From the NCBI RefSeq assembly GCF_035084215.1, contig NC_090339.1:16616001-16680000 (forward strand): 64,000 nucleotides of DNA, given 5' to 3'. Shown here in pieces: positions 14,143 to 55,607 of this stretch. Origin of the DNA: Heptranchias perlo (taxonomy: Eukaryota). Under the pieces are notes generated by a model. It searched no databases. It had not been told where the DNA came from and saw only the letters and a program-made list of their open reading frames with translations. How positions within the stretch are numbered: the first letter of the stretch is position 1; every line of letters begins with the position of its first letter. The position numbers and the translations under genes were made by a program.

Positions 14143-14362
14143 AAAGAAAGAACTTGCATTTATATTGCACCTTTCACGACCTCAGGACATCCCAAAACAA
14201 TGAAGTACTTTTGAAATGTAGTCACTGTTGTGATGTAGGGAAATGTAGCAGCCAATTTGCGCACAGCAAGGTCCCACAAAAAGAAATGTGATAATGAACC
14301 AGATAATCTGTTCTACTGATTTTGGTTGAGGGATAAATATTCAGGACACTGGGGAGAACTGA
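14143..14362 (-). mobile_element. Same SINE family, 3' part
   Basis: Homologous to 13731-13900 and 53415-53640. Confidence 0.8.
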
Positions 14363-14397
14363 TCATGCTGGGGCTGGAGTGGAAAGAACACTCCAGC

Positions 14398-15035
14398 CTC
14401 AGCCATATAAATACTGTGGTTACAAAAGCAGGTCAGAGGCTGGGTATTCTGCGGCGAGTGACTCACCTCCTGACGCCCCAAAGCCTTTCCACCATCTACA
14501 AGGCACAAGTCAGGAGTGTGATGGAATACTCTCCACTTGCCTGGATGAGTGCAGCTCCAACAACACTCAAGAAGCTCGACACCATCCAGGACAAAGCAGC
14601 CTGCTTGATTAGCACCCCATCCACCACCCTAAACATTCACTCCCTTCACCACCAGCACATAGTGGCTGCAGTATGTACCATCCACAGGATGCACTGCAGC
14701 TACTTGCCAAGGCTTCTTCAACAGCACCTCCCAAACCCGCGACCTCTACCATCTAGAAGAACAAGAGCAGCAGGCACATGGGAACAACACCACCTGCACG
14801 TTCCCCTCCAAGTCACACACCATCCCGACTTGGAAATATATCACCTTTCCTTCATCGTCGCTGGGTCAAAATCTTGGAACTCCCTTCCTAAAAGCACTGT
14901 GGGAGAACCGTCACCACACGGACTGCAGCGGTTCAAGAAGGCGGCTCACCACCACCTTCTCAAGGGCAATTAAGGATAGGCAATAAATGCCGGCCTCGCC
15001 AGCGACGCCCACATCCCATGAACGAATAAAAAAAA
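14398..15035 (+). mobile_element. Non-LTR retrotransposon (CR1/L2 group, poly-A-tailed family), 5'-truncated
   Basis: KAGQRLGILRR, IYKAQVRSVMEYSPLAW. 3' end CACCACCTTCTCAAGGGCAATT...GAACGAATAAAAAAA. Confidence 0.9.
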
Positions 15036-15105: not shown

Positions 15106-16650
15106 AGGGGTAATTTTCGGTTGGAATGCTATTCGGGCAGGCAGTGGGCATGGCGTACATGGTGGCCACCCTGAGGAGTCATCATAGGCCCCGTGCAGGT
15201 TAATCTGATTTTCAACAGAGCCTGAAGGTTCTCCAATGTGGCAGTGAAGATATTGATAGAACAGGAAGGAGATCCTCTTCCCTTCTAAGAATTATAGAAT
15301 GGTTACAGCACAGAAGGAGGCCATTCGGCCCATCGAGCCCTCTTTTGACGGGAAATAGGTGCCAAGACAAATTAATCAACACACTTGGAGAGAGGTGGCA
15401 GCGAATATGAATGGCACCAGCATTGATCACACTTGCTGTGTCTTCTTGTCATCGTGCACACTATGCCAAGCTGCCTCATGTTGAAAACCTTTCAGCAGGG
15501 CACATATTAACCCACTTCCACTCTTCTTGCAGGAGAAGCTGGCACACAACAGATGGGGCAGTACAAGAACAGAAGGAGGTCCTGCCACTCTAAGACTGAC
15601 ACCAATAGGATAGGCTGCCATTGACATTATTGGCAGACAAAGGGGATGCAGCATTGGAGATGGTGAGGCTGGGAGCATGGCACAGGGTGTTTGGGCATCT
15701 TCCCTTCCTTTTATCCTTCTACTTAACTCCTTCCGTTACATACTTACACAGTCACACACGCAGCACGACAACCTGGTGGTGCATTGCGCTGCTTATTCTT
15801 GCCACCATATGCAAACTCTTGACCCTCTCTCCTTTTTCTAGGTCCATCCGACAACTCTGGCCTTCCAGTCATACAGACTGAGGAAGAGAACCTTCCAGAA
15901 GATGCAACCTCACTTGCTCTTTCTTTCCAAGCACAAGCATAGAAATCGGCACAAATTGTGAGTTAGAAGCTTCTGGAATGGGTAATTCAACGAGCACAAA
16001 TGGGCAGTTGCAAGTGGCAAGATCTCTTGGGAAAGTGCTCACTGAGGGGTCAGCTCATGTCCCAGCTCAGTTAAAGAGGACAGGAATGCGGCCTTTAGAG
16101 GAACAACCTTTAAAAGAAAAATGCTACCTGTGCACCAACATTTGGTGAATGCATTGGATAGCCTGACAAGAAGCTTCTGTAACATGTAAGAGAGTGTGGA
16201 GGAGTCCATGACCAACTTGTGTGGAGTTCTGGGACATGGCATCAATACTCTGCAGTCAACCATGGGGCACGGGGGACCTCAGTGGAAATTGCAGCCCAGC
16301 CCACTCTTGTCTGTGGCATCAGTAACGGCATCTCTGAACAGGCTGGGAGACCAAATGGATTAGAGCTTCAATCGGATAATGGATGTCCTACAGTCTAGTG
16401 TCCCACAGATTAGTAGGAAGGCTGAGTTGCAGCCTAGTAGCATAGACCGTCTTGCAATGTAAATGGGACCATGTGGCCATCTCTCGTGATGACAGCATAT
16501 CTGGACCCTGGCCGACGCTTAACCAATGCTCACCCTGGTGGCAGAAATCCAGCTAGACCAGTTTGCACTGGCAGCCGCTGATTTCATGAAGACTGCAGTT
16601 GTTGGCCTCTCAGGCCCCAGCTCCATGGTGTCGCTAGTCACGGTGTTATT
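15106..16650 (+). pseudogene. Old Harbinger Myb-like gene relic with a G-rich terminus
   Basis: GGGGTAATTTTCGG end, RFS..AVKILIE, EILFP, TWREVAANMNGTS. Acceptor TTCTTGCAG then EKLAHN...RTEGGP at ~15533. A short CR1 tail is inserted at ~15290-15340. Confidence 0.6.
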
Positions 16651-16844
16651 TTTCTAAGGCTAAGAGTCAGTTAACCTGTGGAATTTACTGACAAGGAGAT
16701 CAGAGCTGAACTGATGGATCACAACCCAAATGGAATGAGGGGTGCTATAATCTTCCTTGGTGACCCTGGGTTGGGGAGGCGAAAAATCAGACAGGAATCC
16801 TGCTCCTGACCATTTCCTCGCGATCCTTGCTGGAAGTGTATGTG

Positions 16845-17558
16845 TGGAGAGACCTTGGAGTGCATGTGCACAGGTCCCTGAAGATGGCAGTACAGGTAGA
16901 TAAGGTTGTGAAGAAGGCATACGGAATGCTCTCCGTTATTAGCCAAGGTATAGAATACAAAAGCAGGGATGTAATGATGGAACTGTATAAAACGCTGGTA
17001 AGGCCACAGCTGGAGTATTATGCGCAGTTCTGGTCACCACATTACAGGAAGGACGTAATTGCTCTGCAGAGAGTGCAGAGAAGATTTACAAGAATGTTGC
17101 CAGGGCTTGAAAATTGCAACTATGAGGAGAGATTGGATAGGCTGGGGTTGTTTTCCTTGGAGCAGCGGAGGCTGAGGGGTGACTTGATTGAGGTGTACAA
17201 ACTTATGAGCGGCCCGGATAGAGTAGACAGGAAGTACCTGTTTCCCCTAGCGGAGAGTTCAAGAACTGGAGGACATAGATTTAAGCTGATTGGCGGAAGA
17301 TTAGAGGGGACATGAGGAAAAACTTTTTTACCCAGAGGTGGTGGGTGTATGGAATTCGCTGCCCGAATTGGTGCTAGAGGCAGGGACCCTCAACTCTTTT
17401 AAAAAGTACCTGGACCTAAAGTGCTGTAAGCTGCAGGGCTACGGACTGGGTGCTGGAAGGTGGGATTAGAATGGGCACCTGGTTGTTCTTTGAGCCGACG
17501 CGGACACAATGGGCTGAATGGCCCCCTTCTGTGCTGTATCTTTTCTATGGTTCTATGG
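16845..17558 (+). mobile_element. CR1 LINE, 5'-truncated
   Basis: RDLGVHVHRSLK...LVRPQLEY...RGDLIEVYK with a TTCTATGG tail. Confidence 0.93.
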
Positions 17559-19069: not shown

Positions 19070-19490
19070 TCATCTGCCGTCTATCGAGGAGCAACGGGTA
19101 TCCCTGTTCCTTTACTTGCAGGTCCTGGAGGAGAAAGAAGAGGATCAGAGAAGTTAGGGCAGGTTGGCGCTGTCATTGTGCTGTCTTGAATTTTTATGCA
19201 GCTGGGTCCTTCCTAGGAGACCCAGGAGATGCATGTGAAATTTTCAAACCTGCAGTGCACAGATACATCATGCAGGTCACAGATGACTTATTTGCCTGCT
19301 GAATTCATCAATTTCCCCACGAAAGATAAACAATGACATGAAATAGCCCTGCACTTTTACCATCTGGCTGGATTCAATAAACGGCAGTGATTAATTGACA
19401 GTAAGCATGTGGTGATTTGGGCCCCTATCCAAACGCCATCCACTTTAGGAACAGAGAGGAATTCGACTTCATGAATGTGCAGCTAGTCGA
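19070..19490 (+). pseudogene. Old Harbinger transposase relic, cut by a CR1
   Basis: LNFYAAGSFLGDPGDACEIFKPAVHRYIMQVTDDLFA, ID.KHVVIWAP, FRNREEFDFMNVQLV. Confidence 0.8.
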
Positions 19491-21405: not shown

Positions 21406-21599
21406 TGAGCCAGAACGATATGTTTTTGCACCAGAATAGAGACATGGCTTACAGATTTAACCTTCACTCAACACCACGCCCCCGCATAAGCAGGTATGAC
21501 ATTCCCTTTGGGCATACCCTTGTATGCCGTTATCAAGGGATTAGGAGGTGTAGCACAGGATGGAGCAAATAAGAGTCATGCAGCATTTGAAGAGGTTGC

Positions 21600-22170
21600 A
21601 CACCACCAACTATTACCCATCTCCTAGAATATAAAGGCAGCACAGGTCATATGAGGGCCCCAGTCAGGAGATGTGCATATGAGTGTGCTTCACCAAAGAG
21701 GCTCTGTCACCTAATGCACGAGGACCTGCAGCCATGCTTATCTGCTCGCACTACTCTTTCTGTGGCTATGAAGGTGACCATCACACTTAACTTTTATGGC
21801 ACTGGCTTATTTCAGGAACCACGGGGATCTCCGTGGTAACAGGCAGGCTGCAGCACGAGCATGCATTCATCAGGTCATTGATGTACTTTACAGGAAAGCT
21901 GGCAAATTCATCACCTTTGGCATCACAGCAAGGAACTAGCGAGGTAGGACCATCAAGTTTTAAAGGGTTGCTGGTTTTCCCAAGGTCTAGGGTGCATTCG
22001 ATGGCACCTATGTTACTTTGTGAGCTCTGATAGAAAACCCCCTCAACCACCTCAACAGGAAGGCCTTACACTCCCTCAATGTATAGACTGTGTATGTCAA
22101 CATGCAGAGGATCCTACAAATCAACACCAGATATGCTGGAAGTTGTCACAAAACATTCATCCTTCAAAAT
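21600..22170 (+). pseudogene. Old Harbinger transposase relic
   Basis: LSVAMKVTITLNFYGTGLFQ, AGFPKV*GAFDGTYV, LNRKALHSLNV*. Confidence 0.8.
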
Positions 22171-22191
22171 TAAATCTTCCTGAAAATAAAA

Positions 22192-23425
22192 ACATAGGAA
22201 GGGACATAGGAACAGAAGGAGGCCATTCAGCCCCTCGAGCATGTTCCACCATTCAATTAGACCATGGCTGATCTGTACCTAAATTGTGGCTGGAGTCATA
22301 CCTGGCACAAAGGAAGATGGTAGTGGTTGTTGGAGGCCAATCATCTCAGTCTCAGGACATCACTGCAGGAGTTCCTCAGGGCAGTGTCCCAGGCCCAACT
22401 ATCTTCAGCTGCTTCATCAATGAACATCCCTCCATTATAAGGTCAGAAGTGGGGATGCTTGCTGATGATTGCACAGTGTTCAGTTCCATTCGCAACCCCT
22501 CAGATAATAAAGCAGTCCGGGCTCGCATGCAGCAAGACCTGGACAACATCCAGGTTTGGGCTAATAAGTGGCAAGTAACATTCATGCCAGACAAGTGCCA
22601 GGCAATGACCATCTCCAACAAGAGAGTGTCCAACCACCTCCCCTTGACATTCAACGGCATTACCATCGCCAAATCCCCCACCATCAACATCCTGGGGGTC
22701 ACCATTGACCAGAAACTTAACTGGACCAGACACATAAATACTGTGGCTACAAGAGCAGGTCAGAGGCTGGGTATTCTGCGGCGAGTGACTCACCTCCTTA
22801 CTCCCCAAAGCTTTTCCACCATCTACAAGGCACAAGTCAGGAGTGTGATGGAATATTCTCCACTTGCCTGGATGAGTGCAGCTCCAACAACACTCAAGAA
22901 GCTCGACACCATTCAGGACAAAGCAGCCCGCTTGATTGGCACCCCATCCACCACCATAAACATTCACTCCCTTCACCACCAGCGCACTGTGGCTGCAGTG
23001 TCTACCATCCACAGGATGCACTGCAGCAACTCGCCAAGGCTTCTTCGACAGCACCTCCTAAACCCGCGACCTCTACCACCAAGAAGGACAAGGGCAGCAG
23101 GCACATGGGAACAACACCACCTGCACGTTCCCCTCCAAGTCACACACCATCCCGACTTGGAAATATATCGCCGTTCCTTGATCATCGTGGCTCAAAATCC
23201 TGGAACTCCCTTCCTAACAGCACTGTGGGAGAACCTTCACCACACAGACTGCAGCGGTTCAAGAAGGCGGCTCACCACCACCTTCTCAAGGGCAATTAGG
23301 GATGGGGAATTAAATGCTGGCCTTGCCAGCGACACCCACATCTTATGAACGAATAAAATAAAAGCCCATCTACCCGCTTGGGTTCCGTAATCCTTAATAT
23401 CGGTGCCGAACGAAAACCTACCAGT
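22192..23425 (-). mobile_element. CR1 3' fragment (22192-22283 and 23363-23425) split by the poly-A LINE
   Basis: CATAGGAA tail plus GGCCATTCAGCCCCTCGAG. CR1 3'UTR sequence resumes after the A-tail of the inserted LINE. Confidence 0.7.
22285..23362 (+). mobile_element. Poly-A-tailed non-LTR retrotransposon, RT C-terminal half
   Basis: ORF 22284..23348: WLESYL, AGVPQGSV.GP, LADDCT. Same 3' end as 14398-15035. Confidence 0.93.
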
Positions 23426-23850: not shown

Positions 23851-25110
23851 CAATTTTATTTGATGTGTTGGCTGCATGGCTAAAAAAAAATTACAGGAGG
23901 TGAAGATTTAATATTCAAAGCTTGAAGGTTTAATTCAACCCAAGAGTGAAAGGAACAGAGAGTTTGGGAGGGGGAATTGTCGGGTTGGAGGAGGTTACAG
24001 AGATGGGGTGAGGCCATGAAGGGATTTAAACGCAAAGATGAGAATTTTTAATTTGATGCATGGTGGGCACCACGAGCCAGTACTTTGTCACGATGTTTAG
24101 TCTATGCTATGGTCTAGTGATGAGTTTATTCTATTGCCTTCCAAAGTCAAGGACGATCACATGAGGGCACATGGTAGAGTCAGTAAGCCAAAATACAGTG
24201 AAGAGGATTCCAGTTCAACCCCCAGGCTCACCAGTCAGGATAACTAGAGATGGGCAATAAGTGTGGTCTTGCCAGCATCACCCACATTCTGAGAACAAAT
24301 TAAAATAAAATGACCCAGATATTAGGCAAGTTAAAGCATACTCTGAGTTATAAGGAGTGAGGGAACAAGACCTTGCTCAGGGAAATAGTCTGAAATGCTG
24401 AACCTGATAAAAATTTATAGAGTAAAGACTCAGAAACCTGAAGTGATGATGAAGGGAAAAGAATCCAAACCCTAAGTTTGGAGCTCTCAATACTAAACCC
24501 AGTAGTAAAATCAAATGTAAAAGTGCCATTTCATTCTGTAGAGCTGGAGCTGACAAACATAATGGGCCCGATTTTAGCACCCACTATCGGGTGCGTTCTC
24601 GGCGGGGGGCCCCCGAAAATCGCGAAATCCCGGAGTGGGACCGGATCCCGCCTCGATCCCACCCACTTCCGGGTTCCGTGCTGACGTGCGGGGGTGCGTG
24701 CGCATCCCCCGCTGGTGGGAATCCCGCAGGCAATTAAAGCCAGCGGGATGCCACTTGACAGTATTTATCTAGCTATTTCAGGTCATTAACTGACCTGATT
24801 CAGCTGTCTTATTAGGAAGGGTGGGATTTTTCCTTCAACTGAGACTGTTTCACATACTGGGGGAAACACTCTCACTCCAAACGGACGTGTTGCAGCCAGC
24901 AGCCTGTGGCAGCTGCCAAGGTGCACTCCACAGGGGGGGGTGGGGGGGGCAGACCCTTCACCAATGCAGGAGGCCACTCCGTCACATAGGGCAACGCCTG
25001 CCCTCCACCACCCCCCTCCCAGACAGAAGATACACCGACGTGGAACCGCAGCCCCAGTGCGAGGAAACACCTACCTACCGTGCACAACCCCTCAGACCTA
25101 CACCTGCCAG

Positions 25111-26367
25111 ATGGGGGCCGCCTCGACATCCTCGGAGGACGAACAGCATCACCAGCCCCAGCAGCCTCGCAGTCCACGCCGTCCGCCTCAGCGACGTGGA
25201 GCCCCCCAACACGGTGCTGTGGTACACTCACCTGCACAGCAGGAGGGAGGGCAACCGCAGAGAGAGATGCGTCGCAGGAGACACTACCCTCCGCACAGGG
25301 TCTACAGACCGAGGCTCAGCTTCATGGACCTCTCCGAGGAGCAGTGCATACGTAGGCTCAGAGTCACTCGCCAGGTAGTCGCCGACATCTGCAGCCTCCT
25401 TAACGACGAGCTGCTCCCTGATGGACCAAGCAGCATCTTCTTACCCGTCACCGTCAAAGTCACCACTGCCCTCAACTTCTTCGCCTCCGGATCCTTCCAG
25501 GGTGCCAGCGGGGACATCACCGGGGTCTGTCAGTCCTCTGCACACAAGTGCATAAGGCAGGTCACCGATGGGTTGTTCCACAGGGCCTCGCACTACATCA
25601 ACTTCGCCATGGACGAGCGCAGCCAGATGGAGAGGGCGGTTGGTTTCCATGCTGTGGCTGGCTTCCCACGGGTGTAGGGTGTAATCGACTGCACCCACAT
25701 AGCAATACAGGCACCTCCACATGAGCCAGGTCTGTTCATCAACAGGAAGGGGTATCACTCCATGAACGCCCAGCTCATCCGTGACCACCGCCAGAGATTC
25801 CTACACGTGTGCGCCAGATACCCCGGCAGCTGCCACGATGCCTTCGTCCTCAGGGAGTCCCCCGTCCCGCCCCTCTTCCACGCACCCAACACCGGCAACG
25901 GCTGGCTCCTCGGCGACAAGGGGTATCCCCTGCACACGTGGCTCATGACACCTCTGAGGAACCCCATCACCGAGCCGCAGCGTCGATACAATGACAGCCA
26001 CATTGCAACCAGGTCTGCAATTGAGCAGGTCATAGGGCTGCTCAAGATGCGCTTCAGGTGCCTTGATCGTTCTGGGGGAGCGCTCCAATACACGCCACTC
26101 AGAGTGGGACGAATTATAGTTGTCTGCTGTGCCCTGCACAACATGGCCCAACAGAGAGGGGTGCAGCTGGAGGAGGCCCCATCCACACCCGCCACCCACA
26201 TTGAGGACGACGATGAGGAGGAGGAGGTGGAGGAGGAGGAGGTGGAGGAGGAGGAGGGGGAGGAGGAGGACGAGCGCGAGGATGAGGAACGACCCATGGG
26301 CCGAACACTGGCTCACTGGGATGCTAGCCAGGCCAGGGAGGCACTCATATGTCAACGGTTCTCCTAG
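25111..26367 (+). pseudogene. Harbinger DDE transposase (HARBI1-like) of element A, one in-frame TAG at 25675-25677
   Basis: ORFs 24940..25677 and 25762..26367 are in the same frame. Motifs: [30 protein letters not shown] (D1), [27 protein letters not shown] (D2), [18 protein letters not shown] (E), CCALHN, acidic tail. The start at ATG 25111 is inferred. Confidence 0.93.
26203..26289 (+). repeat. (GAG)n-rich low-complexity tract encoding the transposase acidic tail
   Basis: GAGGAGGAGGAGGTGGAGGAG... translates to [29 protein letters not shown]. Confidence 0.9.
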
Positions 26368-26666
26368 GATCAGACAGTCTGAGGCGTTCACATCTCATCA
26401 CGTGCACAGACGAGGGGCCATACCAGCCCCCTCCACAGAAGAGTGGTGCCAGTACTCCTGCACCCACTGTAGTGTGCCCAATGGGCGGGACCAGGTGTTC
26501 GTCGTCATGATGGCCCGCACGGAAGGAACCTATTGCACAAGCCGCAGAAGAATGGACGAGAGGTGGCAGGAGTGGTGAGAACGATTGTGTTTACTCTGTA
26601 CTTAGTGAACGACTATAAACAAAAACATTACAAATTGACAGACACCCTGGTGCATTCCCTTTGTGC

Positions 26667-28504
26667 TTATAACACCCTTGGCTTACGTTTACGGGAACCC
26701 CTACGTGGTGCTACCCCTGTGGCTCCAGCAGAGGTAGTGGCAGGTTGCTCCTGTTCGTGCCCTGACCGGGTAGATGCTTTGGGCTGACGCCCCCTGGGTT
26801 TCGGTGCCCGTGAGGGCACCTCCACAGACTGCTCCTCCTGCACCTGTGCAGGGGCAGACTCGGCCACCTGGAGAGGAGGCACCATTGCGGGTACTGGTTG
26901 AGAGGGGGGCAACGGGTGAGACGTGGGGGCACCTCGAGTAGCGTCCCAGCTTCCATGTCCCCATTCACCATCATCCCTCTCATGGCCTCGGCCCACATCA
27001 CCCCTTCCACCCTGCTGGACGACAGTTTGGATGGCATGTGTGAGGCCTTGCAAGGCCACCTCTAGTGTATCCGTCAGCCCGTTTATGGCGGCAGAATGTT
27101 GCTCACCCTGAATCCGAACAGCCGTTGTCAGGGCCTGCATGGACTCGATGTTGAGCTGTGCGTGCCGCTCGAGGGAGGCTAGCCTGTCCTCCACCGCAGA
27201 CGTTCCCGCACCTACCCGCGACACTATGTCGCTGATACCCTCCTGTACCTGCGCCACCAATGCCCGCATGCAGGAGTTGGACTCCTCCATCACCTGCGCG
27301 ATTGTGGACAATGCGCGTGGCACCTCTCCCAGTACCTCGGCAATGTGCTGGTGCCCCTCGACGACTCTCCTTTTGACTGGTGGCCCCCTGGGTTCAGCAT
27401 CTGGGTCCGGCTGAGCAGAGCCTGGAGAAGAGTGCTCCCACCGACGCTGACCCTCCGCGGCTGCCCCTGCCACCAGGGTCTGCTCATGCTCACACGTGCG
27501 CGGTGACTCACCATGTGCAACCCCAACTAGTTGGTGAGGGGGACCCACCGAGGTGTGTGTATCTGCGCTGGTGGGTGGTTGGCTCATATGTGATGATGGA
27601 CCCTCAGAGACCGGCATGTCCTCTGAGGAATCGCCCTCCTCACACACAGCGCTCGCAGACGGCCCTGCAAGAGAACAGAGGGCAATATCAGGCATGTGCA
27701 CAAACGTTGCGGTGCGGCAGATGCCAGGTGATGCTAAGGTCATTCGCGATCATGAGTGCTGAGTGTCAGCTTTCCCTTACCGGCCGTTTCTGCAGCCCCA
27801 GCCTCGCCATCCGCCACGGAGAGGCAATGTTGCGTGCGGCTGATATCCAGCGTCTCCACCTCTGCGTCCGTCAGTACCAGCAGGTGTGGCGGGCCCCCTC
27901 CGGTGCGGTCCCTTTCTCTGGCGTTCTTGCATCTCTTCTCCTGTCAAGGCAAAACACAGATGCGTGAGTGAGTGCAGATTGCATAGTGAGACGCCTCAAG
28001 CATCGGTGTGGGTGGGTTGAGCGTGGGGCAGATGGATGGGAGGATGCGTGTGCCACATGCCCATCCCATTGCATGGGGATTGGGGTGTGTGGTAGTGTTC
28101 GAGTGGGGACAGGGACGGTGGGTAGGTGCAGGCACGGTGAGGATGGTAGTTGAGTGGCTGTGAGGATTGCTGTGGGAGCGCTGTGGTGGCTGTGCAGAAG
28201 GGGTTGTGAGATGTTTGGCGTGATTTTGGAGACGGGTTGTGGGAGGGTGCATTAGTGTACTCACTTTGCCGGACCTAGTGAGGTCATTGAATCGCTTTCT
28301 ACACTGCACCCATGTCCTGGTGGTGCTGCCCCTGCTGCTGACCTCCGCCTCCACCTCTGCCCATGCCTTCCTGGTGGCGGAGCCAGGGCTCTTCCGTCCG
28401 TCACTCGGGAACAGCGTGTCCCTCCTCCTCCTCACACCATCCAGCAGCAGCTGGAGCGGGAGGTCCGAAAACCGTGGTGCAGCCTTACCCCTGGGGTGCT
28501 CCAT
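26667..28504 (-). CDS. Myb/SANT-like (trihelix) DNA-binding partner protein of element A; 3 exons 28504-28265, 27940-27781, 27664-26667; 465 aa, no stops
   Basis: Exon 1 MEHPRGKAAPRFSD...AWAEV...RTWVQCRKRFNDLTRSGK then GTGAGT. Acceptor TTGACAG, exon 2 EKRCKNARERDRTGGGPP...ETA then GTAAG. Acceptor CTTGCAG, exon 3 in frame with ORF 26667..27743 ending RRGSRKRKPRVL*. Exon lengths 240+160+998=1398 nt. Confidence 0.88.
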
Positions 28505-28550
28505 GGTGTGCTGCCTCTTGTTTGCAGCTGGAGGGGCTTTGGTGGACTGC

Positions 28551-28562
28551 CCCTTTAAATAG
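28551..28562 (-). promoter_or_regulatory. TATA-like box (CTATTTAAAGGG) upstream of the element A Myb gene
   Basis: About 47 nt upstream of ATG 28504. The same motif recurs upstream of other Harbinger ORFs in the window. Confidence 0.5.
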
Positions 28563-29984
28563 AGCTCCACCATCGCGCGAACGTCAATGCGCATGCGCAG
28601 GCCGCCGGCGCGCAGCTGGGGAGCGGAGAACCCGTAACCACGGCTTAATGGCATCAATTATCCCGCGATCGCGCGGGGGGTGCACTCATTTAGCCGTCCG
28701 CGTTTTCCACGCTCCCAATGGACCACCCGCCGGGAACCCACAGGCCTGCTAAAATCAGGCCCAATGTGTATGAATAAATGGGAGGAAACTATGTGCACTT
28801 ATTTCTGGAAGAAGAGGCTTAGTATCCCAGAACAGGAGGGAGAAATTATGGATAGACTTTATGGGAAGAGCTAAAGAAGTAGCCAAATTTGGTACTAGAA
28901 CCTCGCAAATCAATATACAACAAGACCTAGAAAAGAAGACTGCAGTTTGACAGCAGCATTTTTGTAAAAAAATAATCTCAAGTAATAGTGCCATTGATTG
29001 ACTTTTATATGACTCTTCCTGGAAAATGAGAAAACCTTTTTCATTATTGAGACTAAATAGAGTTATAGAGTTGGAGAAGTGGGAGGGCAGAATTTCGTCA
29101 GGGGTTCCTCAGGCCTCCCACCTTAACTCCAGCAGAGAGCCCTCAACATTGACAGTGGTGACTTGCAATCAGTCCATCAATATTATTCATAAAGCCCAGA
29201 GATTCACAGAGAGTAATAAGCTGTTCTATCCAACAGTATTAGTGGGAGGAATTATCCATGTTGTAGCTATAATAGGTAACGGCTCAATGGCTTACATCAT
29301 CAGGGAGAGGACTGAGCAAAGACGTAAAATAATAGGATCCATCACTGACCCCACAACTCAGAAGAACTGGATGTCATCTTAATGGGATGAGGGGGACAGA
29401 AGGTTAGACCCACAGCCATTTGTGATTTACAGTTAAAGATACTTAGCACTAAAATGTTAGTCATGGTTTGATGGTCCCAAGCCAGTGCAACAACATGATC
29501 ATAGGTACAAATGTCCTTAAGCACTTACTAGGCAATTGAAGGGGACTAAGGTTTATTGGAGATAACTCTGACTTATGAGACAAGAGGAAGAGCAGTAAGC
29601 TTCATGACTTACTAGCAAACCTAACTAGGTAGAGGGTTAAGGAAATCCCAAAGAGAGTGGAACCACAAAACTCCAGCAAACAATTTATGAGAATAATCAG
29701 TTCTAACACTGCAACACTAAATTCCCTGACATTAGAATAATAGAATTCTTGAATATTACAGAACAGAAACAGGCTATCAACCCCACAAGGCTGCACCAGA
29801 ATCGTTCTCCATGAGTCGTCTGGTCTAGTCTAATCATCTAGTCTAATCTCTCTTTTCATACCCTTTAATATTTGTTTTTACAATCAAATATTTAATTACT
29901 TTTTAGAAGAATTAGTGGACTCTGTTTCAGCAATGGCTTGTGGCAGAGGATTCTATATCCTAACCATCCTCCATTAAAGACTTT

Positions 29985-31669
29985 AGGCGCTAAATTGGGC
30001 CATGTAGCGCCCGTTGTTTCGGCACTACATGGCCTCTCCGACATCCAAGATGGCTTTTTGGATGCGGACACACGTTCCCTGCGTGACGTGCGCCAGACGC
30101 CATCTTGGTATAGGAGTTTGCGCAGGTGCAGATAACAAATGCTGGAATCATGTAAAGTAGGGGAAAAATGGCTTCAATCAGTGTACAATGCTGACTTAAA
30201 GTGATAGACACCATTTTGGGACGTAACGCTCAACTCAATGCACAATCTTAACCCCTACCATCTGAACATGTCTCAGAGTGGCTGGAGGACCCCCCACCGG
30301 CGCTATTTAAAGGGACCATGCAGGATTTACAGGTTAGTGGCTAGATTATTGCTTCTGGCTGACGAGAAATTTGTAACTGTTTTTGGAGGTCTCCTAGGCT
30401 TCAATACTAGGACGCGGGGACATAGTCTAACATTTAGAGCCAGGATGTGCAGGAGTGAAGTTAGGAAATGCTTCTACATGCAAAGGGTGGGAGACGTTTG
30501 GAACACTCTTCTGCAGACGGCAGTTGATGCTAGCTCAATTGTGAATGTTAAATCTGAGATTGATAGATTTTTGTGAACCAAGGGTATTAAGGAATATGGG
30601 GCTAAGGCTAGTGTATGGAGTTAGGTCACAGGTCCACCATGATCTCATTGAATGGTGGAACAGGCTCGAGGGGCTAAATGCCACGGTGACTGGCTGCCTC
30701 TTGATATGCGCCACCTTCTCCTGCAAGAAAGCGGGACGTGTGCCTGGGTGATGTGCCTGTCATGGTTGAATAGCTGCCAGTGTGTGTGGCCTGTGAGTTG
30801 TGGGTGTGTGGCTTGAAACAGTGGTAATGTGTAAGGGTGAGAGGAAGCATCTGATTGGAAGAGTTGATTACTGATGGAAAGAGTTTATTGGTATATGGGG
30901 GATGGGGGGGTGTAGTGCGTGGTGCAGTTGGTAGGAGACGCCACTTGACAGTTGACCTCACTCACCTTGCCCACTCATGTCAAAGCATTGAACTTCTTCC
31001 TGCACTGCATCCATGTTCATGATGCTGTGCGTCTGGCATTGACTTCATCCCCCGCTGCCTCTTACTATCTTCTGACTTTATATCTGGAGGGCCTCTTGCC
31101 GCCCCCCCAGCCTCCTGCGGATATAGGATGTCCCTCCTTCCGTCCACCTCTTGCACCCAAGGCCTCTAGTGCACCAGCAGAGAACCTTGGTGCATGCACT
31201 CTCGCAGGCCTGGTATCAACTCAGATCGGCAGATTGGTGAGGTCTGGTGTGCAGATTGGAGGATGTGGGATTTAGTAGTACGCAATCTTTATTTAATGTT
31301 TTAACATAATTCATCAGTGTGTAAACATAGGGATGGGATCTGCATCTGTGTTTTATGTGTGCAATGTCTGATCTCTGTTCAGACGCCATGCAGACAGTAG
31401 ACTGTTATTTTCAGCAAATAACAGGTACCAGATACCTTTAAGAGATTTCTAAGAAACATCCTCCCCTTAAGAGATTGAGTTCCCTCTGATGGTAGAAAGT
31501 GCAAATTGCATTGATTCCACATGCAAGGCCTGGAAAGGAACGCCGATTGCAGGTAAGTGCTCCCGTGGGTCCAAACTTGCGTCCTGCCTGCGCAGGGTCT
31601 GTCGGGCGTGGGGTGGTTGCGCATCACGATACCACCGCCCAAAACAGACCCTTATTGAATTTTTCCCCC
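29985..31669 (-). mobile_element. Non-autonomous Harbinger-CR1 chimera, copy 2
   Basis: Reverse-complement homolog of 55608-57271 with TTT on both flanks. CR1 piece at ~30405-30681. Confidence 0.9.
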
Positions 31670-39872: not shown

Positions 39873-41700
39873 CCACCACCATCAACATCCTGGGGGTCAC
39901 CATTGACCAGAAACTTAACTGAACCAGCCATATAAATACTGTGACTGCAAGAGCTGGTCAGAGGCTGGGTATTCTGCGGTGAGTGACTCACCTCCTGACT
40001 CCCCAAAGACTTTCCACCATCTACAAGGCACAAGGCAGGAGTGTGATGGAATACTCTCCACTTGCCTGGATGAGTGCAGCTCCAACAACACTCAAGAAGC
40101 TCGACACCGTCCAGGACAAAGCAGCCCGCTTGATTGGCACCCCATCCACCACCCTAAACATTCACTCCCTTTACCACCGGTGCACAGTAGCTGCAGTGTG
40201 TACCATCCACAGGATGCACTGCAGCAACTTGCCAAGGCTTCTTCGACAGCACCTCCCAAACCCGCGACCTCTACCACCTAGAAGGACAAGAGCAGCAGGC
40301 ACATGGGAACAACACCACCTGCACGTTCCCCTCCAAGTCACACACCATCCCGACTTGGAAATATATCGCCGTTCCTTCATCGTCGCCGGAACTCTCTTCC
40401 TAACAGCACTGTAGGAGAACCTTCACCACACGGACTGCAGCTGTTCAAAAACATCAAAACATAGAAACATGGAAAATAGGAGCAAGAGTAGGCCATTCGG
40501 CCCTTCAGGCCTGCTCCGCCATTCAAAATGATCAAGGCTGATCGTCTAACTCAGTACCCTGTTCCCACTTTTTCCCCATATCCCTTGATCCCTTTAGCAT
40601 TAAGAAATATATCTTTCTCCTTCTTGAATACATCTAATGACTTGGCCTCCATTGCCTTCCGTGGTAGAGAATTCCACAGGTTCACCACCCTCTGAGTGAA
40701 GAAATTTCTCCTCATCTCGGTTCTAAATGGCATACCCCGTATCCTGAGACTGTGACCCCTGGTTCTAGACTCACCAGTGATCGGGAACATTCTCCCTGCA
40801 TCTAGTCTGTCTAGTCCTGTTAGAATTTTATATGTTTCGATGAGATCACCTCTCATTATTCTAAACTCTAGTGAATCTAGGCCTAGTCGACCCAATCTCT
40901 CCTCATACGTCAGTCCTGCCATCCCAGGAATCAGTCTGGTAAACCTTCGTTGCACTCCCTCCATGGCAAGGACATCCTTCCTCAAATAAGGAGACCAAAA
41001 CTGCACACAATACTCCAGATGTGGTCTCATCAAGGCCCTGTACAACTGCAGTAAGACATCCCTGCTCCTGTACTCAAATCCTCTTGCAATGAAGGCCAAC
41101 AAACCATTCGCCTTCCTAACTGCTTGCTGCACCTGAATGCTTGCTTTCAGTGACTGGTGTACAAGGACACCCAGGTCTCGTTGCACCTCCCCTTTTCCCA
41201 ATCTATCACCATTCAGATAATAATCTGCCTTTCTGTTTCTACAACCAAAGTGGATAACCTCACATTTATCCACGTTATACTGCATCTGCCATGTTCTTGC
41301 CCATTCACCCAACTTGTCTAAATCACATTGGAGCCTCTTTGCATCCTCCTCACAGCTCACATTCCACCCCAGCTTTGTGTCATCTGCAAACTTGGAAATG
41401 TTACATTTAGTTCCCTCATCCAAATCATTGATATATATTGTGAATAGCTGGGGCCCAAGCACTGATCCCTGTGGTACCCCACTAGTCACTGCCTGCCACC
41501 CGTAAAAAGACCCATTTATTCCTACTCTCTGTTTCCTGTCTGTCAACCAATTCTCAATCCATGCCAGTATATTCCCCCCAATCCCATGTGCTTTAATTAT
41601 GCACACTAACCTCTTATGTGGGACCACCATCTTCTCAAGGGATGGGCAATAAATGCTGGCCTTGCCAGCGACGCCCATATCCCATAAACAAATTTTTAAA
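39873..41700 (+). mobile_element. Poly-A LINE family 3' part (39873-40447 and 41624-41700) split by a CR1
   Basis: Near-identical to 22675-23350. The 3' end CTTCTCAAGG..GATGGGCAATAAATGCTGGCC resumes after the CR1. Confidence 0.88.
40450..41623 (-). mobile_element. Young CR1 LINE, 5'-truncated, RT C-terminal half without stops
   Basis: VPHKRL, WIENWL, SGVPQGSVLGP, KFADDTK, through to GYGEKVGTGY*. CATAGAAA tail. Confidence 0.96.
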
Positions 41701-41849
41701 AGTTGGAATTAGGCAACAACAGAAAGAGAATACAGCAAATTATAGCATCATCACTCTATAGTGGCTGGTAGAATTAAAGGGGTCGATTTTGAATTTTGGA
41801 CAACCAAGCAATGGAGCATGCTAGCCAGTCACCAAACCCGCGGCGAAGA

Positions 41850-43934: not shown

Positions 43935-45142
43935 CTTCAGTTGCATATTTTAGTGAAAGAATTCATGACACAGAAATTGGGCAAATCAGAAAGCCATAAC
44001 TCAGAGCAAGGATAATGCCAAGGCCAGAACTATCCCCTAAAAATTAATAACATTTGACAGAAGCAAAAGATGCACAAGGATGGAGGGGGTGGCTGAATGA
44101 TTGCAAAGAGTGGCCCCATATTTAACATCGATCAAGTGTGAACAAGGGTGGAGCTGTAATTCCACAAAATTATTGACTGCCACGGGATGAAAGGTACCAA
44201 TAATCTTTCATTCCATGAGTGAGAAAAACAACTCGGCCAGCAAATCCTTACATTGTTTTTTTTGTATTTAATGTATTATATTGTGCCATTCACTGTATAA
44301 AAACATCAAATAAGCTTTGAGGACAACTTCCACTCATTGTGCTAAGCATTTACAATTTGTACAAAGGATTGAAAGAAACATATAAATAGAACAGAGCAGT
44401 CAGCACTAAGTGGGCCTTTCATGTGACAATTTTCTGAGGGATCAGATGGAAAGATATTCCCAACAAAACCTGCCTGCTAACTTTTTGATGAGCCTGCTGT
44501 GATATACTGATTTCAGCCAATTCCACTCTCCTCACTCCCTCAATCACACATAATTGATACCTGGAGCTCTGATACTGCTTCCCACGTGCATAACTTTAAA
44601 CCGTCCAATGGTTATTTAACAAATGCCGATCGTCCACTAGAAATTCGATGTGCCACGCCTATTTTTCAGGTGCTAAACGGACACCTAAGTATCCAATATG
44701 GAGGGCAGGGAGCACGTGCTCATTACAAGCTGGAAGTGCGCTGCCCGCCATATTAGTACAGACAAAATATAGGCGTTCAGAGCCCGCGCCTGAAACAGGC
44801 ATTAGGCCCATTCCATAAGCAAATAAAGGGCTAATGCCTGTTTGAGGCCCCTTGTGCAATATTAGGCCATAAGGGGGCCGCTGCAGGCCACCACCAAAAC
44901 AGTGGGGGTTAAATTCGATAACCCCCGAATCCAGGCGCGGGTATCACGTGATTAATCCGCGCCCGGTGCTTCCGATGCAGGCAGCACGTGAGATTCGTGC
45001 TGCCTGATCATCACCATGATCATCACATGCAGCCATGTTGCACGCACCAACAGGAGGCCTGAAATGGGGCATGGCCAGCACTAGTTAAAGGCAGCCTGCA
45101 CCTCTTAAAGGGGAGGTCCACAGTCAATGAAAGCAGTGGAGG

Positions 45143-46998
45143 ATGACAGGAAGGATTGCTGGACCGGCAATAGAGTGCACACCAAGGCTCTTGGACGATG
45201 CACTAGAGGCCCTGGTGGAGGGAGTGAATGAAAGGTGGGCCATCCTGTAACCACAGGTTGGTAGGAGACCCTCCAGACACCAGCTGCATGGGCAGTGGGA
45301 GGGAGTGGCCCAGGAGGTGAACGCCAGGAGCATGGCACCATGCATGTGGGTGCAGTGCCAAAGAAAGTTCAATGATTTGACATGAGTGGTCAAGGTAAGT
45401 GAATGCAAGTGTCAAGTGGCACATCCTACCAACTGCACCACTGCTCCACGCAAAACCCCCCCCTCACCCACCCACCAACACACGCTGCCCATCCATGCAC
45501 AATACTGCACTTGGAATGCTGCATCTCACCCTCGCATAGTGCCACACAACCACCACTCACAGGTCACACACACTGGCAGCTATTCGACCATGACAGGCAT
45601 ATCACCCAGACACCTTGCAGGATACTCACTGACACACTTCCCTCTGTCTTGCAGGAGAAAGTGGCGCATAACTGCCAGCAGCAGGAGAGACCTGAGGGAG
45701 GACAGGCACGCCTACAGGTCCTTACCCCTCTGGAGGAGATGGTGCTGCAGATCATTGGCCTGGCCATCATTGCGGCCGTGGCCACTGGCGGCGCTGGAGG
45801 TCCCGATGAAAGGGGTCTCTGCATTTCTAATCCTCCTTTTCATTTCCCACATCTCCCTCATCCCACAATCTTTTCTGATGCACGTGCTGCAGATGGTGCC
45901 AGTACACATGTCTTACTCGCTCCTATCCCCACTCCACAACACAACCCGTCTCCCTACATTGCAGGTACCCAAGAGCTGGAGCCGGCACTGTCCGACGAGG
46001 AGGAGGAGGGGGACTCTGAAGCCATACCGTCATTTGATCTGACACTCGCATCCACCAGGTCAGATGCTGACACTGCGCGTCCTTTAGAGGATAGGTTCGA
46101 GGAGGGATCTGCACGTAGTGAGACACCGGGCACAAGTGCGCAGGAGCCTAGGTGGGGGGGGGGGGGGGGAACAGATACCACAGATGCCAGCTCACCGGAG
46201 GGTGAGGTCGCTCAACGTTCTGCTGCTGAGGAGTCAGATGATGACTTCGATGGGCCAGGCTACAGAAGACGGCTGATGGGTGTACACCACCACAGTGCTT
46301 AGTGCACTGGAAAGCCTGTCAGAAAGCTTGCACACGATGTCAGGGAGCATGGAGGAGTCCACCTCGAACTTGGCACAGGGCTTTGCGGAGAGTTTGGAAC
46401 CCTTTTCTACATGGAACGGACGGTCACCTCCATCAGCACACTTGTGGAATTCACCATGATGCAGCATCTGATGACCAGTCGCGGCTTCCATTGCAGCACA
46501 AACCGATGTCATCAAAGGTCTGCAAGCTTTGGTTGAAGCTCAGACTGCTGCAATGGCAGCTCAGACTGATGCTATTGTGGCTTTGGGTACCACTGTGGAA
46601 CAGGGCAGTCCGTTCTCCAGCTGATCACCATGAGAGCTGAGGCGCCGCCCCGTGTGAGTGGCAGTGGCGCCATGGCAGTCGAGCCTGCTGTCCTGTGTCC
46701 GGATGACAGCATTCCTGCTTCCACCCCTGCCACTCCTCCAGTGCCCTTGCCGTTGCCTATAAGCAAGCCAGGCCGGACTCTTGCAGCCCATGCTGAGATG
46801 GTGCAGTCTGAAGCCGGTCCCTCTCGGCCGAGAACTGCTCGAGGTCGTCCTCCACGGCCATCTGCACGCTCCTCCATTGAAGGTCAGCAGCCTCCCACCA
46901 CCCACGCTCCAGCCACTGGGAATTCACCTCGTAGGAGCACTAGGATAGGTAAAGGCACACAAACAACAGGCACTAAGGGAACACACAAGGTTGAATAG
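45143..46998 (+). pseudogene. Myb/SANT-like gene of element B (decayed, spliced)
   Basis: PR..DDALEALVEGV...WEGVAQEVNARSMAPC.WVQC.RKFNDLT*VVK, donor GTAAGT after 45394. Acceptor CTTGCAG, exon from 45655 EKVAHNCQQQERPEGGQ. Ser/Pro/basic C-terminus to 46998. Contains stops and frameshifts. Confidence 0.8.
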
Positions 46999-47195
46999 TC
47001 TCATTTTGTTTGCATCATTTCATGTGTTCATTCATAAATGTGAATTTAAATTTGCATTTGGTGGTGATTTTTATTTCTGCGATGAGCTGAGGGAGGAAGC
47101 AATGTGTAATCATATGGAGGGTGATTTGATGGTCATGTGGGAGAGGACGGGTGGGGAGTGTACAACTGTTGGCGACTTGGGAGATGTTGTTCACG

Positions 47196-48062
47196 TTATT
47201 GATATCGCTCACGGATCAGGTGAGCATGCCGAGCCCTGGCAGACAGGGCCAGTGTTCCTTGTTGCCCCCTTGCATCTTCCTCCACATTCCTCTCCGTCTC
47301 CTCCCCCTCATCCTCAGCCTCCTCTGGCTCAGGGTCTTGCCAGATAATCGATGGCAAGGGCTGTTTCTTCTTAATGGTGAGGTTGTGCATCATGCAGCAT
47401 CCCACAATGAATCTTGACACCCACTCAGCAAAGTACTGCAGGGCTCCACCAGAACGGTCCAGGCAGTGGAAGTGTTGCTTTAGGACGCCTATGGTATGCT
47501 CAATGACATTGCTTGTGGCAGCATGGCTGAGATGACATGTGGAGCACGCATGGCAATAAGCATGCAGTCAATGGCACCCTGCACCATGGGGAAGCCTGCA
47601 ATGTGAGCAAACTCTTATGCTCGCTCGTTCTACTTCTCTCTTTCAAGAGGGAACGTGATGAACCTGTTGCACATCTCGTATGGTGCTTCCATAACTTCCC
47701 TTTTGCAACAGTGCACTGCACATTGTGAGATGTTGCACAGCTCGCCAGCAGAGGCTTGAAAGGATCCAGAGCTATTGAAGTTCAATGGCACGAATACCTT
47801 CATAGCCTCAGGCAATGCTGTCCTTGCCCTGTTCTGAGGCTGTAGTTGTGGCTGCAGCAGGTGACAGATCTCTGTCATGACCTCTTTGGTGATCCTCGCT
47901 CATCTGGAGGTAAGAATATTGTTCCCTGAAGGCCCTCATGGGATATGGCCTCCTGCTCCTCCTCCTCCTCCCTCTCCTTGCAGTTTGACCTGGTCTGCGT
48001 GGTCTTTCAGCATGCTCCCAGTCATGTTCTATGCCGAGTGGGAGCCCTAGCAGACCACCCAT
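47196..48062 (-). pseudogene. Harbinger transposase of element B (frameshifted, internally deleted)
   Basis: MGGLLGLPL...RRPYP, LNFNSSGSFQASAG, AGFPMVQGAIDC, then jumps to H.ATS...[14 protein letters not shown] and GCCMMHN. The NRKG..GD segment is missing. Confidence 0.85.
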
Positions 48063-48123
48063 GGTTGCCAGGAATCTTGTTCAAACACTGTTGTAAATTA
48101 CACCAGCTGTAAGGCAGTACCTG

Positions 48124-48165
48124 TCAAATATACTATAGCAACTCTCAAATATACTATAGCAACTC
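48124..48165 (+). repeat. 21-bp perfect tandem duplication TCAAATATACTATAGCAACTC x2
   Basis: Read directly from the sequence. Confidence 0.9.
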
Positions 48166-49279
48166 TCTGTAAGTATAGGAAGCTTCAACAAACACGTCCT
48201 ATTCTGCCAGCAGTCAGAAGTAATAATCTAGCAACTAACCTGCAACACCTGCATGATCCCTTTAAATAGCGCTGTTGGGGGTTCCTTCAGGCTGTCTAAG
48301 ACATGTTCAGGTGTTCGTGGTTAAGACAATGTGTTGAGTGGAGAGTTAAGTGCCAAAATGGGGTCTATCACTTTAAATCAGCGTTGCACACTGATCTAAT
48401 GCATATTCTCCCTTCTTTATGTGCTGCCGGCATTTGTTATCTACGCTGCGTGAAACCCTTTACCAAGATGGCGTCTGGCACATGTAATGCTAGAAGAGTG
48501 CGCATGCATTCCAGACGCCCTTTTGGAACCCACATAGCACCGAAGGAACAGGTGCTACACGGCTCAATTTCTAGCCTGGTGTGCGTTTAAAAAATACTTG
48601 CTGAACGTGGATCCCAGAGGTCCAGGAGTGCTCCTCCTAGCTCCACCACGGGCCGCTATCGGCCGCCACTCTCCCCCTTCCTGATGTCCTGATTGCCCCT
48701 ATCCCGGTGTCGCGATCGCCCCCCTTCTGATCGTCATCCTCTTCCAGTTGCCCTCCTCCCGTACGCCTTCCCTTCTCTTTTAACCACTTGCCTGGGGACG
48801 GCCAGCAGGTGTTCACAGCTGGCTGGTCTCATTTAAATCAGGCAGGAGGCCCAATATTTGGTGGGCCTTGGGCTTACCCGTTCAGGTGCAGGGGCCGCTC
48901 CCTTGCGTCCAGTTCACGTAGGCAGGCGCGAACGGATTTCTAAGCCAATGCTTCTTAAGATACAAACATTAATTCAATATTATGAAAAAATGGTCCAAAA
49001 TTCCAATGATCCTGTTGCGCCATCATAAGAGAAGTGGGATGGGGCAGGACTTACGGTTGCCATGACATTGTAGCAGTAGATCCACTGTAAATTGCGAGGT
49101 CAGATCACTTACATAGTGAGAGGCATACAGGCTGTGCAAATCCAATCTGCAACATCTCACATATATTGAGGGGGCGGAAATCTCACAAAGAACCAGAACC
49201 AAAAGTTAGGCCCAAATGTGTCCCGAATGGTTGGCAGTGGGATGGCGGGCAGGCAGAAAATAGTGGACTCTCATGAGCT

Positions 49280-54968: not shown

Positions 54969-55607
54969 GCTGAGCCAAGACTGACATTTATGTTAAACTA
55001 ACTGGTCTGTACTGACCTGAGTTAACTGTGTCCCCTTTTTTGAAAATGTGTATCACACTGGCCACTTTCCAGTCCTCCAAAACACATCCACTCTCAATAG
55101 AACCCTGAAATATAATTTCTAGTGCCTCTGCTATTCCGCCATTTCCGTCAGGATCCGAGCATGTATCCCACCAGGTTCGAGCACTTTGGTCTTTATCTTA
55201 ACTAACTTCTCTAATACTTTCCTTTTATTAGTTATCTCTCTCATCTTGCTTTTAACCAATTCAGTGTTTACCTCTGCTCCCAACATCCTTCTCCTTTATA
55301 AACACTGCAGCAAAGTACTTGTTAAGTATCCCCACAATTTCTGTTTATCCTCTACTAACTCACTATCCTCTCCCTTCAGGGGTCCCACCTCACATTTAAC
55401 AATTCTCTTTTTACTGATACATTTGTAGAATACTGTTCTTTTTAATATTTTTTGAGATTCTCTCCTCGTACTCCCTCCTTGCTTTCCTTATCCCTTTCTT
55501 AACCTCTTTCCTTTTTTTTTATATTCTCTCTTACCATTAACATTTCTTTCATAGCTATAGAACCCATATGCCCTCTTCTTCAATGTTAGCTTGTTTCTAA
55601 GCTCTTT

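What the first reader, a model, noticed from the sequence alone, without database searches (positions are those of the whole stretch)
24564..28762. A vertebrate Harbinger apparently one substitution away from full autonomy
Seen: near-perfect TIRs, an exact TSD, abundant intact CpG, an intact spliced 465-aa Myb/SANT protein (trihelix N-terminus, heptad-like middle, basic RRGSRKRK C-terminus), and a transposase with all DDE motifs whose only visible open-frame lesion is a TAG (probably from CAG) at 25675. Established: Harbinger transposition needs both the transposase and the Myb-like partner; the zebrafish system had to be reconstructed from a consensus. Inference: this is a very recent or still active family and a candidate for resurrection. 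This copy could still supply Myb protein in trans.
Basis: partly seen in the sequence, partly recalled or inferred. Interest (0 to 1): 0.7.

Follow-up and report, generated by a model that had tools for sequence, protein, structure and literature searches.

The report
Decaying Harbinger transposon copy in shark
This is a real, full-length two-gene 'cut-and-paste' transposon in a shark genome, but it is an ordinary ageing copy of a very abundant family with several damaging changes in both genes, not an element one mutation away from jumping.

Summary
The anatomy is right: a 4,199-bp Harbinger with 16-bp TIRs (15/16), AAT duplication, a DDE transposase broken by TAG at codon 189, and a three-exon 465-aa Myb gene whose two introns are spliced in RNA of sister copies. 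The closest relatives are all proteins of the sevengill shark Heptranchias perlo.

Against 75,171 family contigs, this copy carries at least ten private substitutions. They include Arg224 in the catalytic core (Cys in 102, Arg in 0 of 116 homologues) and Glu52 in the Myb helix (Ala in 41, Glu in 0 of 54). Most family contigs are under 95% alike. Private divergence of about 1-2% means roughly 10-30 million years on the shark clock. No listed RNA piece comes from this copy. Intact natural vertebrate Harbingers are already published (269 in a sea krait).

One lead remains: a sister subfamily, 83% alike in Myb protein, has 99-100% identical copies on several H. perlo scaffolds, so the lineage moved recently. 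This scan noted a similar shark/ray Harbinger before on other DNA.

The parts
24561..24563 (.). left target-site duplication AAT
24564..24579 (+). left terminal inverted repeat, 16 bp, begins GGG
   Evidence: 15 of 16 match to the right TIR
25111..26367 (+). Harbinger DDE transposase pseudogene, 418 codons, single exon (D193 25687-89, D269 25915-17, E305 26023-25)
   Evidence: AlphaFold model mean pLDDT 80.6
25123..25125 (+). place where sister copies carry four more N-terminal codons (this copy is 12 nt shorter, in frame; low-confidence, probably disordered region)
   Evidence: loose ends at 25125 in 85, 10, 4 and 5 contigs of four runs; P0004 has the longer N-terminus
25675..25677 (+). premature TAG, codon 189, four residues before the first catalytic Asp
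   Evidence: Gln in 91 of 118 homologues
25780..25782 (+). private missense, Arg224 at a conserved Cys at the end of a core beta-strand
   Evidence: family depth with the other letter 701,728 of 701,785 in X1 and all of X5; Cys 102, Arg 0 of 116; strand E216-224
26203..26286 (+). acidic (Glu/Asp) low-complexity tract of the transposase C-terminus
   Evidence: present in homologues
26667..27664 (-). Myb-like gene exon 3 (helical middle, basic C-terminus)
   Evidence: 83-93% identical to H. perlo sister proteins
27665..27780 (-). Myb intron 2, 116 nt, GT-AG
   Evidence: joint skipping 116 nt (CT..AC on + strand) in 1 contig of RNA run X7, none in DNA runs X1, X5
27781..27940 (-). Myb-like gene exon 2
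27941..28264 (-). Myb intron 1, 324 nt, GT-AG
   Evidence: joint skipping 324 nt in 1 contig each of X6 and X7, none in X1, X5
28265..28504 (-). Myb-like gene exon 1, Myb/SANT trihelix domain; carries Pro16 and private Glu52 (28349-28351)
   Evidence: Pfam PF13873 E 3.3e-10; Pro 0 of 54 at 16; Ala 41 and Glu 0 of 54 at 52; other letter at 28350 in 284,832 of 284,879 depth
28554..28561 (-). TATA-like box about 50 nt upstream of the Myb ATG (inferred promoter)
   Evidence: sequence; function not tested
28747..28762 (-). right terminal inverted repeat
28763..28765 (.). right target-site duplication AAT

Best explanation
A once-autonomous Harbinger (PHIS superfamily) copy that inserted by cut-and-paste into an AAT site of a hexanchiform-type shark genome, probably 10-30 million years ago, and has decayed neutrally since. 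How the family works is taken from zebrafish Harbinger3_DR, not shown here: the Myb protein binds subterminal DNA and the transposase and brings it to the nucleus; the DDE transposase cuts at the TIRs and inserts, leaving a 3-bp duplication. Shown here: this copy's transposase stops at codon 189, before all three catalytic residues. Inferred: Arg224 would independently damage the catalytic fold, and Glu52 and Pro16 weaken or disable the Myb domain. The copy can at most be moved passively, through its near-intact ends, by proteins of a younger sister. It looks almost intact because the shark clock is slow: at 1-2% neutral divergence, 0.9-1.7 new stops are expected over both genes, and at most one stop has probability 0.79-0.49 (indels not modelled).
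For: Ten of the 38 places I scored (from the 40 of 869 rows shown) carry a letter found at depth 170 or less among 9,000-700,000 family depth in the run that holds this locus. Five of the 6 coding ones are non-synonymous, as neutrality predicts (0.74-0.77). Arg224: 0 of 116 homologues, and 0 among the 68 with an intact D-D-E. Glu52 and Pro16: each 0 of 54. Identity bands of the 75,171 contigs laid: 11% at 99+, 26% at 95-99, 42% at 90-95, 21% under 90. Organism B has the same shape and the same majority letter at 16 of 17 near-fixed places. The nearest annotated sister Myb is 195 of 210 identical in exon 3; terminal branch 0.028 per site. The word share of 0.50-0.57 in runs of the carrier equals 1.8-2.2% if independent. 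Clock 0.6-1.1e-9 per site per year, derived from dS 0.0612-0.111 over about 50 My (PMC13100897; arithmetic). TpG/CpA excess.
Against: No assay shows that Arg224, Glu52 or Pro16 abolish function. The hard floor of private change is only 0.24% (2-4 My); the 1-2% figure rests on indirect estimators. Short contigs over-weight rare variants, and CpG-rich methylated DNA runs faster than the synonymous clock of other sharks. This copy has the shortest end branch (0.074) of the 18 rows in its H. perlo clade, so it is better preserved than annotated sisters. Sequence age is not insertion age for a cut-and-paste element.
Confidence: 0.82

Rival explanations
1. One reading: a very recent copy whose only defect is the TAG, with a functional Myb protein supplied in trans.
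For: No frameshift in either gene, D-D-E present, canonical splice sites, TIRs 15/16, exact TSD; CpG o/e about twice the flanks; family transcripts are spliced at both introns.
Against: Private Arg224 and Glu52 at conserved sites, Pro16, a 12-nt N-terminal loss and at least 10 private substitutions. All 16 RNA pieces listed inside the element differ from this copy by 6-19% (over 83,000 pieces not shown, and contigs drop rare variants).
Confidence: 0.06
2. An old, already defective copy that was moved to this site recently in trans by an active sister, so the insertion is young though the sequence is not.
For: Cut-and-paste moves a copy with its private changes (established mechanism); ends are near-intact; a sister subfamily has 324-326 of 326 identical Myb exon-3 residues at loci on different H. 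perlo scaffolds.
Against: The young sister is only 83% identical in Myb protein, so it may not recognise these ends. No empty-site joint among the 15 of 95 joints shown (weak, one individual).
Confidence: 0.08
3. The TAG is an assembly error or is read through, so the transposase is made in full.
For: The place 25675 could not be inspected in reads (row not shown).
Against: The junction contigs of X1 match the window with 0 differences, and the window's letter has single-locus depth (about 50) at other private sites such as 25780, so the assembly is faithful there. Arg224 would remain. TAG-G is not a known leaky context (recalled).
Confidence: 0.03
4. The Myb gene is kept by host selection (early domestication) while the transposase decays.
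For: The Myb frame is open over 465 codons; Harbinger Myb and transposase genes are often domesticated (PMC9710019).
Against: Three of the 4 private coding changes seen in Myb are non-synonymous, one at a conserved helix position; an open frame is expected by chance at this age; TIRs and TSD are retained.
Confidence: 0.02

Closest known systems
Harbinger3_DR of zebrafish (reconstructed; Sinzelle et al. 2008, not held; known to me through passages of PMC3016246, PMC9710019 and PMC9179366)
   Same: Two genes, DDE transposase plus Myb-like partner; 3-bp TSD. The reconstructed empty site here matches the printed 15-nt palindromic target consensus at 10 of 15 positions (one site, chance not tested).
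   Different: The central triplet is AAT, not CWG. No sequence comparison with Harbinger3_DR itself was possible.
NuwaI / NuwaII groups of the PHIS superfamily (Han et al. 2015, PMC4482050, Results read)
   Same: TIR starts GGG, Myb/SANT second ORF, length near 4.2-4.7 kb, animal host, same secondary-structure setting of D, D and E.
   Different: The TSD is AAT, not CWG or TNA; it fits the ANT of Pangu, whose second ORF lacks Myb. One copy cannot define a family TSD.
Harbinger-Snek of sea kraits (PMC8437027, passages)
   Same: Vertebrate Harbinger with a massive expansion, expression, and many defective copies.
   Different: Arrived by horizontal transfer and keeps 269 fully intact copies in L. 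colubrina; this shark lineage looks vertically inherited and this copy is broken.
LatiHarb1 and relatives in coelacanth (PMC3787270, passage)
   Same: Abundant, diverse Harbinger families in a slowly evolving fish (9.3% of that genome).
   Different: Different host lineage; no sequence comparison made.
RefSeq 'putative nuclease HARBI1' and 'MYPOP-like' models of Heptranchias perlo (e.g. XP_067858713.1, XP_067827223.1)
   Same: Same family: transposase 79-80% identical; a 465-aa Myb protein that aligns without gaps, 84.5% identical.
   Different: They are other decayed copies annotated as host genes; none of those found is this copy or an intact transposase of the subfamily.

Membership tests
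PIF/Harbinger superfamily (broad sense, PHIS) | DDE transposase of the DDE_Tnp_4/HARBI1 type | tested here: met
   PF13359 E 9.7e-36; D193, D269, E305; gene interrupted by a stop
PIF/Harbinger superfamily (broad sense, PHIS) | second ORF with Myb/SANT domain | tested here: met
   PF13873 E 3.3e-10; splicing seen in sister RNA
PIF/Harbinger superfamily (broad sense, PHIS) | short TIRs and 3-bp TSD | tested here: met
   16-bp TIR 15/16, AAT on both sides; no empty paralogous site available
PIF/Harbinger superfamily (broad sense, PHIS) | both proteins needed for transposition; Myb binds a subterminal motif | not testable with these tools
   a hexamer repeated 5 times in the ends and 0 times inside is not above chance (314 of 1000 null sets)
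PIF/Harbinger group in the narrow sense of Han et al. 2015 | TWA target duplication | tested here: not met
   AAT; definition
NuwaI (Han et al. 2015) | TIR begins GGG; Myb/SANT partner | tested here: met
NuwaI (Han et al. 2015) | CWG target duplication | tested here: not met
   AAT in this one copy
NuwaI/NuwaII (Han et al. 2015) | transposase falls in the Nuwa clade | not tested
   no labelled reference transposases were in the tree
Pangu (Han et al. 2015) | ANT duplication and second ORF without a known motif | tested here: not met
   TSD fits ANT but the second ORF has a Myb domain
Autonomous ('potentially active') copy | two intact ORFs | tested here: not met
   stop at codon 189; conserved-site changes in both proteins
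Domesticated HARBI1/NAIF1-type host genes | single-copy, no TIRs, intact frame | tested here: not met
   TIRs, TSD, 75,171 related contigs, stop codon

The most novel reading that the evidence does not exclude
The family, though not this copy, is still transposing or did so very recently in a hexanchiform shark. A sister subfamily has Myb proteins 99-100% identical at loci on at least four scaffolds, and family Myb transcripts are correctly spliced. A naturally intact Harbinger with an A/T-rich target triplet outside the published TWA/CWG/TNA scheme may therefore exist in one of the slowest-evolving vertebrate genomes, where Harbinger lineages appear to have turned over vertically across sharks and rays.
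Probability: 0.3. Interest if true: 0.5.

Novelty: new member of a known kind. Interest (0 to 1): 0.22.

Why it matters
As a single copy it matters little: it is one of many thousands of ageing Harbingers (number inferred, not counted). It is a useful caution that in sharks an almost intact-looking transposon can be millions of years old. At family level there is modest value. A 2022 survey found no Harbingers in elephant shark and asked for other cartilaginous fish to be tested (PMC9179366); a 2025 shark genome paper names Harbinger among its commonest DNA transposons only in passing (PMC12498223). My searches listed no dedicated description of shark Harbinger families; Repbase, Dfam and subscription papers could not be searched. 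If the young sister subfamily holds an intact pair of genes, it would give another natural vertebrate Harbinger to test, possibly with a different target triplet.

Tried and rejected
No whole genome is held for this window, so copies, TSD consensus and intact-copy counts could not be collected directly. Insertion polymorphism: no empty-site joint among the 15 of 95 joints shown, and the two junction contigs reach only 27 and 20 letters into the element, under the tool's 31-letter rule; X1 may be the source sample; no verdict. No RNA holder was listed on record; X6 and X7 are RNA by the tool's guess and share one sample and study. Horizontal transfer was not supported: in a quick tree of 63 of 120 homologues the copy joins P0004 (100), inside an 18-row H. 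perlo clade (98) and a 46-row chondrichthyan clade (99); listed non-chondrichthyan or unnamed hits reach at most 50%. Subterminal Myb-binding motif: not above chance. No solved structure matched by sequence; Foldseek gave only weak DDE/integrase hits, none at E 0.001 or better. My first exon coordinates were off by a few bases and were corrected. Summed contig depth was not used as a copy number. Earlier-findings look-ups by sequence and by place gave nothing. Supplements of PMC4482050 (family tables) were not read and may list related families or TSDs.
Full report
Observation. The element spans 24564-28762. Its 16-bp TIRs match at 15 positions and AAT flanks both ends. It is 60% G+C against 44% in the flanks. 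The + strand holds a 418-codon transposase frame (25111-26367) with one stop, TAG at codon 189; it matches Pfam DDE_Tnp_4 and keeps D193, D269 and E305. The - strand holds a three-exon gene of 465 codons, the best-scoring of 12 open splice combinations, with a Myb/SANT domain in exon 1. TIR plus TSD would be weak evidence alone here (190 comparable inverted pairs, 3 with a 3-nt repeat), but family depth drops from 10^5-10^6 to about 50 just beyond the right end. CpG o/e is 0.61, but TpG and CpA are enriched beyond the flanks, which indicates partial decay.

Host and family. The best transposase hits are shark and ray proteins named 'putative nuclease HARBI1', led by Heptranchias perlo at 79%. 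All 10 hits to Myb exon 3 and all 3 to exon 1 are H. perlo models; one is also 465 aa and aligns without gaps at 84.5%. The host is therefore most likely H. perlo or a close relative (inference). In a quick tree of 63 of the 120 listed homologues, the copy sits in an H. perlo-only clade inside a chondrichthyan-only clade; nothing points to horizontal transfer.

Splicing. Two runs guessed to be RNA, from one sample and study, show a joint skipping 324 nt (1 contig each in X6 and X7) and one skipping 116 nt with CT..AC ends (1 contig in X7). The two DNA runs show neither. Lengths and places match the predicted introns; the first is placed one base off, which fits a sister with a different last exon base (inference). 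The spliced contig differs from this copy at 30 of 162 and 13 of 102 letters, so it comes from another copy. All 16 RNA pieces listed inside the element differ by 6-19%, but over 83,000 pieces were not shown and contigs drop rare variants. The gene structure is supported; expression of this copy is not shown.

Further lesions. Run X1 holds this locus (three flank or junction contigs with 0 differences, depth 25-39) and 75,171 related contigs. Of the 40 of 869 difference rows shown, I scored 38. At 17 of them at least 95% of X1 depth has another letter, and 16 of these hold in organism B too. At 10 the window's letter has depth 170 or less, so it is essentially private. One gives Arg224, at the end of core strand 216-224 of the model, where 102 of 116 homologues have Cys and none Arg; none of the 68 homologues with intact D-D-E has Arg. 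Another gives Glu52 in the second Myb helix, where 41 of 54 related domains have Ala and none Glu; Pro16 is likewise seen in 0 of 54, though the other letter there holds only 52% of X1 depth. Loose ends at 25125 in all four runs, and P0004, show that sisters carry four more N-terminal codons; this region is low-confidence in the model and may be neutral. The functional effects are inferred from conservation, not assayed. They remove the basis for 'one substitution away' and weaken 'Myb in trans'.

Age. Contig identity to this copy is 11% at 99+, 26% at 95-99, 42% at 90-95 and 21% under 90; organism B gives 12, 24, 41 and 24%. That pattern fits 6-8% divergence for typical contig lengths, inflated by rare variants and subfamilies. 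For private divergence, the floor is 0.24%; the Myb exon-3 end branch of 0.028 equals about 1.3% in DNA; and a word share of 0.50-0.57 equals 1.8-2.2% if contigs keep only shared words. Whale and zebra sharks differ by dS 0.0612-0.111 over about 50 My (PMC13100897, passages), and a pedigree rate of 7e-10 per generation agrees that sharks are slow (PMC10587355, passages). That gives 12-33 My, floor 2-4 My; CpG-rich DNA may run faster. At 1-2% neutral change, at most one new stop over both genes has probability 0.79-0.49, so the near-intact look needs neither youth nor selection. Against my reading, this copy has the shortest end branch in its clade, and a cut-and-paste copy can be older than its insertion.

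A younger sister. The cluster of P0126 has four members. P0126 and P0134 are identical over 326 exon-3 positions and P0133 differs at 2; P0133 is on record on two contigs, and the scaffolds differ in length, so at least four are involved. They are 83% identical to this copy. Their gene models lack Myb exon 1, and I could not see their DNA, so segmental duplication or a non-autonomous derivative is possible. Still, this is the best sign of recent movement in the lineage, and it concerns another subfamily.

Mechanism. Shown: anatomy, stop, splice sites in sisters, family abundance. From the literature: both proteins are required, the Myb protein binds the transposase for nuclear localisation and binds a subterminal motif (PMC9710019, passages; PMC9179366, introduction and passages; the primary paper was not held). 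Inferred: this copy makes at most a 188-residue fragment without catalytic residues and a Myb protein of doubtful function, and can move only passively. The target arms (24554-24560 and 28766-28772) form an imperfect palindrome (5 of 7), and the site matches the printed Harbinger3_DR target at 10 of 15 positions with a different centre (PMC3016246, passage). This is one site and was not tested against chance.

Comparison and novelty. It meets the broad definition of a PIF/Harbinger element. In the scheme of Han et al. 2015 (PMC4482050, Results) it resembles NuwaI in GGG ends and Myb partner, but its AAT duplication fits neither CWG, TNA nor TWA, so I do not file it in a subgroup. That paper already lists 11 NuwaI and 22 NuwaII families with two intact ORFs, in groups whose hosts include bony fish, an amphibian and a turtle, and a sea krait holds 269 fully intact copies (PMC8437027, passages). 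A near-intact vertebrate Harbinger is therefore not rare. Shark Harbingers are little described in what I could search.

Verdict. Real feature, correct anatomy, over-read significance: a decaying copy of an abundant shark Harbinger family. New member of a known kind; interest 0.22.

Noticed in passing
window 44613-48443 (ends approximate): A second, older two-gene Harbinger of another family in the opposite orientation (Myb on +, 45155-46944; transposase on -, about 47205-48030), with stops and frameshifts in both genes.
   Followed up: partly
window 3690-5251, 29985-31669, 55608-57271, 62547-64000: Four copies (74-88% alike) of a 1.6-1.7-kb non-autonomous Harbinger derivative with a Myb exon-1 relic in at least three; TTT flanks both ends of two copies, so shark Harbinger TSDs here look A/T-rich rather than CWG or TWA.
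   Followed up: partly
window 19186-19429, 21554-22251, 15992-16393: Further Harbinger relics: two transposase fragments and one Myb-like fragment.
   Followed up: no
proteins P0006/P0007, P0017/P0023, P0020/P0032/P0053, P0011/P0013: HARBI1-like proteins conserved between distant sharks or rays, with short branches (83% Carcharodon-Chiloscyllium, 79% Mobula-Narcine). P0006 and P0007 lack the third catalytic Glu. Candidate elasmobranch-specific domesticated transposases; synteny not checked.
   Followed up: partly
proteins P0132, P0136: H. perlo gene models in which pieces of this family's Myb gene are joined to a CDK2-like kinase and to a sialyltransferase: exonisation or annotation artefact.
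   Followed up: no
window 14320-14973, 16764-17315, 22272-23348, 40551-41708, 53950-54992: Fragments of LINE reverse-transcriptase genes, CR1/L2-like by recalled motifs; no host gene exon was noticed in the window.
   Followed up: no
window 24238-24297: A short host repeat just left of the element, with raised depth in DNA and RNA runs, probably a SINE.
   Followed up: no
window 24964-24966: An in-frame ATG 49 codons upstream of the assumed transposase start; P0004 begins at the downstream one.
   Followed up: no
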